NCBI RefSeq assembly: GCF_001677475.2 | Contig: NZ_CP015229.1 | From: Escherichia coli | GTDB lineage: Bacteria > Pseudomonadota > Gammaproteobacteria > Enterobacterales > Enterobacteriaceae | DNA: 64,000 bases | Direction: 5' to 3' (one strand) | In this document: positions 27,728 to 30,700 of the stretch, one piece after another | Position numbering within the stretch: the stretch's first letter is position 1 | How the letters are laid out: each line of letters begins with the position of its first letter | Position numbers: made by a program

Positions 27728-30700
27728 TAACCCCGTAATCACGCCATTGTCCCAATCGTCTTCCTGAATCGCAGCAGTGCGATGGTGAAAAATGCGCCGC
27801 CAATTGCCATCAGCGTCAGGAACTGCGGCCAGACGATTTCGAATCCGGCACCACGGTAGAGAATGGCCTGCGCGAGGCTAACAAAGTGTGTCGTCGGCAT
27901 GGTCAGCATAATGTCCTGCACCATCTGCGGCATACTTTCGCGCGGCGTGGATCCACCGGAAAGCATTTGCAGCGGCAGCAGCACCAGAATCACCAGCAGC
28001 CCCAGTTGCGGCATTGAACGCGCGATCGTCCCCATAAAAATGCCGATTGACGTGGTGGCAAACAGACTGAGCGCCACGCCCAGCATAAACAGCGGGATCG
28101 AGCCTTCAATCGGTACACCCAGTACGCCTTTCACCATCAGCACCAGCGATAATCCCGACACCACCAGCACCACCAGCCCCATCGACCAGACCTTCGCCAT
28201 CATGATCTCAAACGGCGTTATCGGCATCACCAGTAAGTGTTCCACCGTGCCGTGTTCACGCTCGCGGATCAGCGCCGATCCGGTCAATACAATCGCCAGC
28301 ATGGTAATGTTGTTGATGATCGCCATCACCCCGCCAAACCACGCGGGATCAAGGTTCGGGTTAAAGCGCATCCGGGTTTCCAGCGATACCAACGGTTCGC
28401 TGTTATCACGGTAGCGCGCGACAAAGCTGTTCACTTCACCGTTGATAATATTCTGGATATACCCATTGCCGGTAAATGCCTGGCTCATGCGCGTGGCATC
28501 GACGTTCACCTGAATATCTGGCTGGCGTCCGGCGAGGACATCACGCTGAAAATTAGGCGGAATATTTATCGCAAAGGTATAGCGTCCGGCGTCCAGTCCG
28601 GCATCCATCTCATCGGCGGTGATCATCTCCGGTGGCAAAAACCACGGGCGATAGAAGCTGTTAACAATCCGGTTCGATAACTGCGATTGATCCATATCGG
28701 CAATGGCGATCGGCGCGAGGTTCAACGATCCTGGCGTAACGGTCGCTGACGAATACACCGACACCGTAAACGAGAAGACAATCAGCGTCAGCATCGCTTT
28801 ATCACCGAGCAAACTGCGCAACTCTTTGATACCCAGATTAAAAATATTGCGTAAATGGCGCATCATCCCTCCTGTTTTTTCAGCAGCAGGATGCTTAAGC
28901 CCATCACCAGCGGGATGGCTATCAGCAACGGGATAAAAAGTTGCCACAAATCAGTCAGATCCAGCGCTTTCGAGAACGTCCCGCGGGCGATAGTCAGAAA
29001 ATGACTGGTCGGGTAAACCTCGCCGATCCAACGTCCTGGACCTTCCAGCGAAGCTACCGGATCGATCATCCCGGAAAACTGCGTCGCCGGGATCAACGTG
29101 ATAATCGCCGTTCCGAAAATGGCGGCAATCTGGCTTTTCATAAAGGTGGAGATCAGCAGCCCCATTCCGGTGGCGATGATGATATACAGCAGCGCCGCCA
29201 GGGTGAGCGTCAGGAAACTGCCTTTATGCGGTACGCCAAACACAAACACCGACAGGCCGCAGAGCAGGAAAAAGTTCAGCATCCCCAGCGCGATGTACGG
29301 TAGCTGTTTGCCAAGCAAAAATTCGCTACGGGTGGTGGGAGTCACGTAAAGGTTGATAATCGACCCCAACTCTTTTTCCCGCACCACGCTAAGGGCGCTT
29401 AGCATTGACGGGATCATCATCAGCAGAAGCGGGATCACCGCCGGAACAATCGCTGGCAGGCTTTTTACGTCCGGGTTATAGCGATAGCGCGTCTCAATGT
29501 TCATCAGCCCGCTTTGGCTGGAGGGTGTGGATTGTCGGCTCGCCACATCCTGTAGCCAGCTCTGGTGCATAGCCTGCACGTAACCTTTTACCGTTTCGGC
29601 ACGGCTCGGCATCGCACCGTCAATCCAGACACCGAGTTCCACAGGCGTACCACGCGCGATATCGCGCCCGAAATTGGGTGGAATCTCAATCGCCACCGTG
29701 ATATCGCCCGCACGCATCCGACGATCAAGTTCGTCATAACTGGTGAGCGGCGGCTGTTCGATAAAATAACGGGAACCGGAGAGATTGAGCGTCCACGCCT
29801 GGCTACTGACGGTCTGGTCGCGATCAAGCACCGCAAAGCGCAGATTTTCCACATCCATACTGATGCCGTAACCCATTATCAGCATCAGGATCACCGTTCC
29901 CATCAGCGCCAGCGTCGAACGTACCGGATCGCGGCGCAGTTCCAGTGCTTCGCGACGGCTGTAGCTAAACAGACGGCGCAGGCTAAATCCCTGACGCGGC
30001 GCGTGGGTGGTGTCGTGTATCACGGGCGGCGCTTCGGCTTCGTTGCTCTGCCCTGCCGCTTCCTGCAAATAGGCGATAAATGCCTCTTCCAGACTGGCGG
30101 CTTCGCGTTTCTCAACCAGTTCCTGCGGTGTACCGCTGGCGAGCACTTTTCCGGCGTGCATCAGTGAGATACGGTCGCAACGTTCCGCTTCGTTCATAAA
30201 GTGGGTGGAGATGAAGATAGTCACTTTGTCCTGGCGCGAGAGATCGACCATCAACTGCCAGAACATATCCCTCGCCACCGGATCGACGCCAGAAGTAGGC
30301 TCATCGAGGATTAACATCTCCGGGCGATGAATCACCGCCACCGCCAGCGAAAGCCGCTGGCGAATGCCGAGCGGCAATGACTCCGGCAGAACATCTTCAA
30401 CGTCGTTGAGCTTAAAACGCTCGCTCATTTCAGCCACTCTTGCGGGAATTTCCGCTTCCGGGATGTGAAATAAACGGGCATGTAACTCAAGGTTTTGCCG
30501 CACGGTGAGTTCGTTATAGAGCGAAAACGCCTGCGACATATAGCCTACCCGACGGCGAGTATCGATATCTTTTGGATCAACCGGTTGCCCGAACAGCCAC
30601 GCCTCACCTTCGCTGGCGGGCAGCAGCCCAGTAAGCATTTTCATGGTGGTGGATTTACCGCAGCCGTTCGAACCAAGAAAACCAAAAATCTCCCCGCGTG

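What the first reader, a model, noticed from the sequence alone, without database searches (positions are those of the whole stretch)
27731..27738. No rhsB element: nikR and yhhJ are separated by only 8 bp
In K-12 the rhsB element and associated H-repeat genes lie between nikR and yhhJ. Here the nikR stop (27730) and the convergent yhhJ stop (27739) are nearly adjacent, so this strain either never acquired or has cleanly lost the Rhs element. This is useful as a strain marker and for defining the Rhs insertion site.
Basis: partly seen in the sequence, partly recalled or inferred. Interest (0 to 1): 0.3.

Follow-up and report, generated by a model that had tools for sequence, protein, structure and literature searches.

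The report
Empty nikR–yhhJ hotspot, no rhsB
This strain has nothing but 8 bases between the nikR and yhhJ genes, where E. coli K-12 carries the rhsB element; this is the rarest of four alternative fillings of a known variable spot, useful as a strain marker but otherwise ordinary.

Summary
nikR (27329-27730, +, stop TAA) and yhhJ (27739-28863, -, stop TGA) converge across an 8-bp spacer, CCCCGTAA. K-12 MG1655 has 6,689 bp there: rhsB, yhhH, yrhC', yhhI.

The rhsB-present/absent framing is too simple. Junction counts in 5,426 complete E. coli genomes give four alleles:
- rhsB type: 2,126
- 5.9-kb GntR/PTS/kinase/HPr/aldolase sugar island: 1,590, of which about 580 also carry hicAB
- hicAB toxin-antitoxin cassette alone (823 bp): 1,492
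- empty, as here: 165 (3%)

The sugar island sits at the same site in E. albertii, E. whittamii, two unnamed Escherichia species and one Citrobacter amalonaticus. Its divergence tracks that of the flanks, so it is probably ancestral in Escherichia. K-12's rhsB insert still keeps the last 87 bp of the island-type allele next to yhhJ, so rhsB did not enter an 8-bp site.

The window's allele is therefore best read as an old clean loss of the sugar island and its REP/BIME spacer, in a lineage with no sign of ever having had rhsB. The direction of change is inferred, not shown.

rhs locus 9 (nikR/yhhJ) and its restricted distribution are already published (Jackson 2009; Archer 2011). Interest is low: a good lineage marker, but a poor guide to the exact Rhs insertion point.

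The parts
22408..27323 (+). nikABCDE nickel ABC importer genes upstream of nikR (nikA 22408-23982, nikB 23982-24926, nikC 24923-25756, nikD 25756-26520, nikE 26517-27323)
   Evidence: ORFs. Colinear with K-12 nikA-E. Called genes and Pfam families in the near-identical loci L084-L089.
27329..27730 (+). nikR, 133 aa, stop TAA; the C-terminus is ...LPKEN, against ...LPKED in K-12
   Evidence: 99.2% identical to K-12 NikR. Pfam RHH_1 + NikR_C on the identical protein.
27731..27738 (.). 8-bp spacer CCCCGTAA: the 'empty' allele of the nikR/yhhJ hotspot. It holds no REP/BIME, no terminator hairpin and no cargo.
   Evidence: No terminator-like site on the + strand. No unusual fold (z -0.17 and +0.67). 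Homology to occupied alleles breaks at 27728-27734 on the left and 27735-27741 on the right.
27739..28863 (-). yhhJ, ABC-2 type permease, 374 aa, stop TGA. Every non-empty Escherichia allele examined has TAA.
28863..31598 (-). rbbA (911 aa, ABC ATPase/permease fusion), upstream of yhhJ in the yhiI-rbbA-yhhJ operon

Best explanation
The 8-bp nikR/yhhJ junction is the 'empty' allele of a multi-allelic, stop-codon-to-stop-codon hotspot in the Escherichia chromosome. The site holds one of four fillings: a 5.9-kb GntR/PTS/kinase/HPr/aldolase sugar island, with or without hicAB; a hicAB toxin-antitoxin cassette alone; the rhsB element; or nothing. The sugar island plus a REP/BIME spacer is the ancestral filling in the genus. 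The window's allele is a derived clean deletion of all of it. That deletion probably happened once, long ago, and was then passed between lineages by homologous recombination in the flanking core genes. On this reading the lineage never held rhsB at the site. rhsB arose later in another lineage by replacing the island and leaving 87 bp of it. One likely consequence here is that no terminator lies between the convergent nik and yhiI-rbbA-yhhJ transcription units, so each may read into the other. Shown: the structure, the allele frequencies, the island's distribution in outgroups, and the 87-bp relic in K-12. Inferred: the direction of change (deletion), a single origin, and read-through transcription.
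For: Structure.

Allele counts in 5,426 complete E. coli genomes:
- empty: 165
- hicAB-only: 1,492 (1,489 by subtraction)
- island-type left junction: 1,590
- rhsB-type left junction: 2,126
- hicA/yhhJ right junction: 2,072, so about 580 genomes have island plus hicAB, as in O157
- total: 5,373 of 5,425

The island is old and vertically inherited:
- It lies directly after nikR in E. albertii, E. whittamii, Escherichia sp. E1V33 and MOD1-EC7003, and between nikR and yhhJ in Citrobacter amalonaticus S646.
- Its divergence tracks that of the flanks. Nissle against E. whittamii gives 93.3 / 94.4 / 95.2% for left flank / island / right flank. Nissle against C. amalonaticus gives 82.6 / 77.9 / 82.2%.

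Island-less outgroups (13 Citrobacter genomes and S. enterica diarizonae) have 15-837-bp spacers, most of them REP-bearing. None is as short as 8 bp.

K-12's rhsB insert keeps the last 87 bp of the island allele at 94% identity. Other copies of that repeat in K-12 are only 78-82% identical.

Single origin of the empty allele: all empty alleles share the same spacer length, the nikR stop TAA and a yhhJ stop TGA found in no other Escherichia allele. They occur in backgrounds whose flanks are only about 91-96% identical to the window over most segments (yhhJ itself 94-98.5%): FDAARGOS_536, with B2-like flanks, and SCPM-O-B-8794.

Literature: Jackson 2009 infers that rhs position 9 (nikR/yhhJ) arose only in the K12/HS/ATCC8739 lineage. 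Archer 2011 lists the site as rhs-free in strain W.
Against: Eight bases cannot show the polarity of the event. The spacer equals about 4 nt of the island allele's left end (CACC against CCCC) plus 4 nt of its right end (GTAA). That pattern is what either a precise insertion into an empty site or a precise deletion would leave. No convincing microhomology was found at the putative deletion endpoints. One divergent Escherichia lineage (SCPM-O-B-8794, a separate GTDB species representative) and most Citrobacter lack the island, so an ancient empty/occupied polymorphism cannot be excluded. REP elements are mobile, so their presence in outgroup spacers is weak evidence of ancestry. No flanking SNPs are specific to the empty alleles apart from the stop codon, so recombinational spread is not directly demonstrated. 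Read-through transcription was not measured.
Confidence: 0.62

Rival explanations
1. The 8-bp junction is the primordial, never-occupied state of the site. The sugar island, hicAB and rhsB are each independent insertions into it, or into each other, and the window simply kept the ancestral arrangement.
For: Convergent adjacency of nikR and yhhJ with short spacers (15-103 bp) is the commonest state in Citrobacter and occurs in S. enterica diarizonae, so adjacency as such predates Escherichia. The empty allele occurs in three backgrounds that differ from one another by about 4-8% in most flanking segments, and its spacer itself has diverged (CCCCGTAA against CTTCGTAA), so it is old. The island allele keeps about 4 nt matching each half of the 8-bp spacer on either side. 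The island has a lower G+C than its flanks (49.2% against 56-57%), as expected of acquired DNA at some earlier time.
Against: Four of the five non-coli Escherichia species representatives that have nikR carry the island. A Citrobacter carries it at the same site at core-like divergence. No outgroup has a spacer as short as 8 bp or lacks REP-like sequence to that degree. Only 3% of E. coli genomes are empty.
Confidence: 0.28
2. The lineage once carried rhsB, as K-12 does, and lost it cleanly.
For: Rhs elements are known recombination substrates, and loss of rhs loci is widespread (Jackson 2009). A draft genome with the same NikR protein allele (L091) has the K-12-type rhsB left junction, so rhsB alleles do circulate on related nikR sequences.
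Against: No rhsB, yhhH, yhhI or H-rpt remnant lies anywhere in the window. The 87-bp BIME that flanks rhsB in K-12 is missing. Both stop codons differ from the rhsB allele (TAA/TGA against TGA/TAA). L091's flanks are only 97.2% identical to the window, so it belongs to a different lineage. All six close relatives of the window are empty. The same empty allele exists in B2-like strains, a group reported to lack the clade I rhs expansion.
Confidence: 0.05
3. The junction is an assembly artefact, for example a repeated Rhs element collapsed out of a short-read assembly.
For: Rhs cores are multi-copy and often break short-read assemblies. L091's contig ends about 280 bp into the K-12-type left flank, 79 bp into the rhsB coding sequence.
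Against: A collapse would not create a seamless stop-to-stop junction with a distinct yhhJ stop codon. The identical junction occurs in 165 complete (closed) genomes and six independent drafts.
Confidence: 0.01

Closest known systems
rhs locus 9 (rhsB; nikR/yhhJ) of E. coli, as catalogued by Jackson et al. 2009 (BMC Genomics 10:584) and Archer et al. 2011 (BMC Genomics 12:9, Table 6, region b3481-b3485)
   Same: It is the same chromosomal site, bounded by the same two genes. The published tables already record strains with and without an rhs gene here and infer a late, lineage-restricted origin for rhsB.
   Different: The window is an rhs-free instance. In the sections read, those papers score rhs presence or absence and do not mention the alternative cargos (sugar island, hicAB) or the completely empty 8-bp form.
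Integration and deletion hotspots between conserved core genes in E. coli, where alternative accessory modules occupy one site and are exchanged by homologous recombination in the flanks. This is general knowledge of E. coli genome dynamics; I cite no specific paper read here.
   Same: Several unrelated cargos sit at one site. Nearly identical flanks carry different cargos: within the B2-like haplotype, empty, hicAB and island alleles sit on left flanks that are 99.2-99.6% identical. No integrase, tRNA or att-like repeat is present at the site.
   Different: Here the variable segment is bounded exactly by two convergent stop codons, which themselves co-vary with the cargo.
hicAB type II toxin-antitoxin cassette at the same site (e.g. 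EPEC E2348/69)
   Same: It occupies exactly the same stop-to-stop interval (823 bp).
   Different: It is absent from the window. It is named here only as an alternative allele.

Membership tests
Rhs element (rhsB-type, clade I rhs locus 9) | A large rhs core ORF (about 1,400 aa, YD-repeat protein) between nikR and yhhJ | tested here: not met
   Only 8 bp lie between the stop codons. No window segment matches K-12 3618990-3625674.
Rhs element (rhsB-type, clade I rhs locus 9) | Associated downstream components (yhhH immunity-like ORF, H-rpt/ISEc1 yhhI) or relics of them | tested here: not met
   blastn of the whole window against K-12 3586000-3672000 found no alignment of 150 bp or more in the rhsB-yhhI interval.
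Rhs element (rhsB-type, clade I rhs locus 9) | K-12-type left junction (nikR TGA followed by GTCTATTATTGGG...) and the 87-bp BIME next to yhhJ | tested here: not met
   The window has TAA followed by CCCCGTAA and has no BIME.
Empty allele of the nikR/yhhJ hotspot | nikR stop TAA, an 8-bp spacer C(YY)CGTAA and yhhJ stop TGA, contiguous | tested here: met
   The window, L082, L084-L089 and L009 share this structure. 165 complete genomes match at least 80% of the 120-bp junction probe.
Site-specific mobile element attachment site (integrase-mediated island) | Flanking direct repeats or att sequences, and a nearby integrase or tRNA | tested here: not met
   No integrase is annotated in the island, hicAB or rhsB alleles at this site. 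The only transposase-like gene there is the H-rpt yhhI. Junction sequences show no duplicated target beyond about 4 nt of similarity.

The most novel reading that the evidence does not exclude
The nikR/yhhJ interval behaves as a stop-to-stop 'cassette slot'. Four mutually exclusive or combinable fillings (ancestral sugar island, hicAB, rhsB, nothing) have been segregating and shuffling among Escherichia lineages for longer than the species has existed. The empty allele is a single ancient deletion, marked by its own yhhJ stop codon, that now sits on backgrounds differing by about 4-8% in most flanking segments. If so, the site would be a compact natural system for measuring conversion-tract lengths and selection on cargo turnover, and for asking what convergent operons do without a terminator.
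Probability: 0.45. Interest if true: 0.3.

Novelty: already known. Interest (0 to 1): 0.15.

Why it matters
It matters modestly. The 8-bp junction is a cheap, unambiguous PCR or in-silico marker. It is found in only about 3% of complete E. coli genomes, largely strains whose names and sources suggest extraintestinal (ExPEC/B2-type) isolates, plus a few divergent genomes. It is fixed in the six draft genomes closest to the window. The survey also corrects a K-12-centred view. rhsB is only the plurality state (39%), the site's ancestral content is probably a sugar-utilisation island, and rhsB arrived by replacing it. None of this changes what is understood about Rhs biology or nickel regulation.

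Tried and rejected
1. I looked for a terminator or unusual structure at the junction. There is no +-strand terminator-like site, and the folds are no better than shuffles. I therefore dropped the idea of a compact bidirectional terminator.

2. I looked for SNPs in the 300 bp on each side that are specific to empty alleles, as a sign of a shared recombination tract. None exists apart from the yhhJ stop codon. Sliding identity to FDAARGOS_536 rises across yhhJ (98.6-98.8%), but yhhJ is equally conserved against non-empty alleles, so this is uninformative.

3. I tried to read deletion endpoints or microhomology out of the 8-bp spacer by comparing it with the island-type flanks, including the E. 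albertii GCGCCGTAAT hairpin. No scheme reproduces both the spacer and the TGA stop, so I abandoned this as over-reading 8 bases.

4. I tested whether the K-12 nikR-rhsB spacer is related to the left flanks of the hicAB or island alleles. There is no BLAST similarity.

5. I tried to name the source strain. No complete E. coli genome is closer than 97.5% over nikA-yhiJ or 98.3% over rpoH-zntA. Exact-protein look-up found near-identical draft assemblies (GCA_019140535.1 has 1 mismatch in 12.4 kb), but the tool gives no organism names. The lineage is therefore only described as deep-branching. That it is cryptic clade I is a guess, not a result.

6. Literature search for a description of hicAB or the PTS island at nikR/yhhJ found nothing specific. 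The Hill-laboratory papers on Rhs-free sites are not in the searchable library.

Full report
**Observation.** The window reads ...CCG AAG GAA AAT TAA | CCCCGTAA | TCA CGC CAT TGT....
- nikR occupies 27329-27730 on the + strand (133 aa, stop TAA).
- yhhJ ends at 27739 on the - strand (stop TGA; 374-aa CDS 27739-28863).
- The two proteins are 99.2% and 99.7% identical to K-12 NikR and YhhJ.
- The window is colinear with K-12 MG1655 3591836-3636228 apart from two indels.
There are 6,689 bp between the two stops.

**The junction is not an artefact.**
- Six independent draft assemblies that are 99.5-99.99% identical to the window over 12.4 kb have the same junction.
- 165 closed E. coli chromosomes match a 120-bp probe centred on it.

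**What else occupies the site.** Fetching representative genomes showed that the site is not a two-state (rhsB or nothing) locus.
- EPEC E2348/69 has an 823-bp hicB-hicA toxin-antitoxin cassette.
- Nissle 1917 has a 5,908-bp island: GntR regulator, PTS IIA/IIB/IIC (galactitol-type), FGGY kinase, HPr-like protein and class II aldolase.
- O157:H7 has that island plus hicAB, 6,561 bp in all.
- K-12, B and BL21 have rhsB.

**Junction-specific probes** (120 bp each) against 5,426 complete genomes gave the counts below. They sum to 5,373 of the 5,425 genomes that have the locus.

| Allele | Genomes | Share | Calls |
|---|---|---|---|
| rhsB-type left junction | 2,126 | 39% | 25 |
| island-type left junction | 1,590 | 29% | 26 |
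| hicAB adjacent to nikR | 1,492 | 27.5% | 45 (1,489 by subtraction) |
| empty | 165 | 3.0% | 6, 43 |

- The hicA/yhhJ right junction is present in 2,072 genomes, so about 580 island-bearing genomes also carry hicAB.
- The window therefore has the rarest allele.
- Judging only from strain names and sources in the 60 listed rows, the empty-allele genomes look largely ExPEC/B2-type (e.g. A0 34/86, M1/5, UPEC and canine isolates). FDAARGOS_536 has B2-like flanks, 99.3-99.6% identical to Nissle and E2348/69 on the left. Fourteen further genomes match the probe at only 90-95%.

**Boundaries.**
- Homology between the window and occupied alleles stops at or within the stop codons: left at 27728-27734, right at 27735-41.
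- The stop codons co-vary with the cargo: empty = nikR TAA / yhhJ TGA; island = TAA / TAA; hicAB and rhsB = TGA / TAA.
- The spacer CCCCGTAA resembles the first 4 nt after nikR in the island allele (CACC) plus the last 4 nt before yhhJ (GTAA).

**Which state is ancestral.** One scan of GTDB species representatives with NikR returned 80 loci.
- Thirteen Citrobacter genomes and Salmonella enterica subsp. diarizonae have nikR and yhhJ convergent and adjacent, with 15-837-bp spacers, most of them REP-bearing. Adjacency as such is therefore old.
- The sugar island lies immediately after nikR in E. albertii, E. whittamii, Escherichia sp. E1V33 and MOD1-EC7003, and between nikR and yhhJ in Citrobacter amalonaticus S646.
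- Its divergence tracks its flanks. Nissle against E. whittamii gives 93.3% (nik), 94.4% (island) and 95.2% (yhhJ-rbbA). Nissle against C. amalonaticus gives 82.6, 77.9 and 82.2%.
- This pattern fits vertical descent, so the island was most likely present in the common ancestor of Escherichia.
- Only one non-coli representative is empty: 'E. coli' SCPM-O-B-8794, about 93% identical to the window, with spacer CTTCGTAA and the same TAA/TGA stops.
- I therefore read the window's allele as a derived clean deletion of the island and its REP/BIME spacer. The shared TGA stop in three backgrounds whose flanks mostly differ by 4-8% suggests a single old event, later moved by recombination.
- This is an inference. 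Eight bases cannot show polarity, no endpoint microhomology was found, and no flanking SNPs specific to the empty allele exist. An ancient empty/occupied polymorphism remains possible; I give it about 0.28.

**Relation to rhsB.**
- K-12's insert shares nothing with the hicAB cassette.
- Its only match to the Nissle island-type allele is the last 87 bp before yhhJ, which are 94% identical to the segment downstream of the island's aldolase gene.
- That segment is a REP/BIME-like repeat whose other K-12 copies are only 78-82% identical, so the match is orthologous and not generic.
- rhsB therefore entered, or replaced, an island-type allele and not an 8-bp site. The window cannot define the Rhs insertion point to the base.
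- Nothing indicates that the window's lineage ever had rhsB. It has no relic, its stop codons differ, and all six close relatives are empty.
- Jackson et al. 2009 list nikR/yhhJ as rhs position 9 and infer that it 'evolved uniquely in the K12/HS/ATCC8739 lineage'.
- Archer et al. 2011 tabulate the region b3481-b3485 as rhs-free in strain W.
- The variable presence of rhsB at this site is thus already known.

**Consequences (inferred).**
- The island allele has a strong 9-bp G+C-rich hairpin just after nikR.
- The window has no terminator-like site on the + strand and no unusual fold across the junction (z -0.17 and +0.67).
- Transcription of nikR and of yhiI-rbbA-yhhJ may therefore run into each other. 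This was not tested.

**Source lineage.**
- No complete E. coli genome is more than 97.5% identical over nikA-yhiJ or more than 98.3% over rpoH-zntA.
- Unnamed NCBI drafts are nearly identical to the window.
- The window therefore comes from a deep-branching E. coli-like lineage that is absent from the complete-genome set. I could not name it.

**Verdict.**
rhsB is absent and the K-12 order is right. However, the alternative to rhsB is usually other cargo, the thing lost here is probably a sugar island, and the junction does not define the Rhs insertion site.
- The finding is an ordinary, already catalogued accessory-genome polymorphism. It has some value as a lineage marker.

Noticed in passing
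window 38290-64000: Colinearity with K-12 stops just past yhiM, at the 3' end of yhiN. The rest of the window is an island absent from K-12 3636228-3672000. It holds an IS3-type integrase-core fragment (38444-39148, -), two short tyrosine recombinases (39835-40386, 41376-42038), AraC, CaiF/GrlA and LuxR-type regulators, a TibC-like heptosyltransferase (43805-45025) with a 1,240-aa AIDA/TibA-like autotransporter (45018-48740), and an EAL protein (49592-50401). 56% of this region is 99.9% identical to strains such as FHI_NMBU_11.
   Followed up: partly
window 51402-58372: A CBASS-like anti-phage module lies inside the island: a SAVED-domain protein (51402-52949), an SMODS cyclase (52955-54100) and a ThiF/E1-like protein (54097-55932). 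IS66-family transposase genes follow (55983-56402, 56780-58372). These are Pfam hits only.
   Followed up: partly
window 6536-7289: About 750 bp between panZ and livJ have no counterpart in K-12. They encode a TacA1-like antitoxin (6733-7041, -; Pfam PF08681, E 1.2e-17) followed by a 60-aa ORF (6529-6711, -) with no Pfam hit, possibly a truncated GNAT toxin. This would be a degenerate tacAT-type toxin-antitoxin remnant.
   Followed up: partly
window 27725-27727: NikR ends ...LPKEN in this lineage, whereas most loci examined, including K-12, end in D. The same protein allele also occurs next to hicAB (L090) and next to a K-12-type rhsB junction (L091) in other draft genomes.
   Followed up: no
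whole window (tested on 8500-20500 and 20000-36000): No genome among 5,426 complete RefSeq E. coli is closer than 98.3% (rpoH-zntA region) or 97.5% (nik-yhiJ region). Unnamed NCBI draft assemblies, such as GCA_019140535.1, are up to 99.99% identical. The source is a deep-branching Escherichia coli-like lineage that I could not name.
   Followed up: partly
L001 10593-10678 (K-12 3625592-3625677): The 87 bp between yhhI and the yhhJ stop in K-12 are a locus-specific REP/BIME-like relic of the sugar-island allele: 94% identical to Nissle, against 78-82% for paralogous copies near panZ/livJ and pitA/uspB. This shows that rhsB replaced the island.
   Followed up: yes
L008 (Escherichia sp. MOD1-EC7003) 10405-20399: The sugar island follows nikR, but no yhhJ lies within the next 4 kb of the locus. 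The island's right-hand neighbourhood is therefore rearranged in that species.
   Followed up: no
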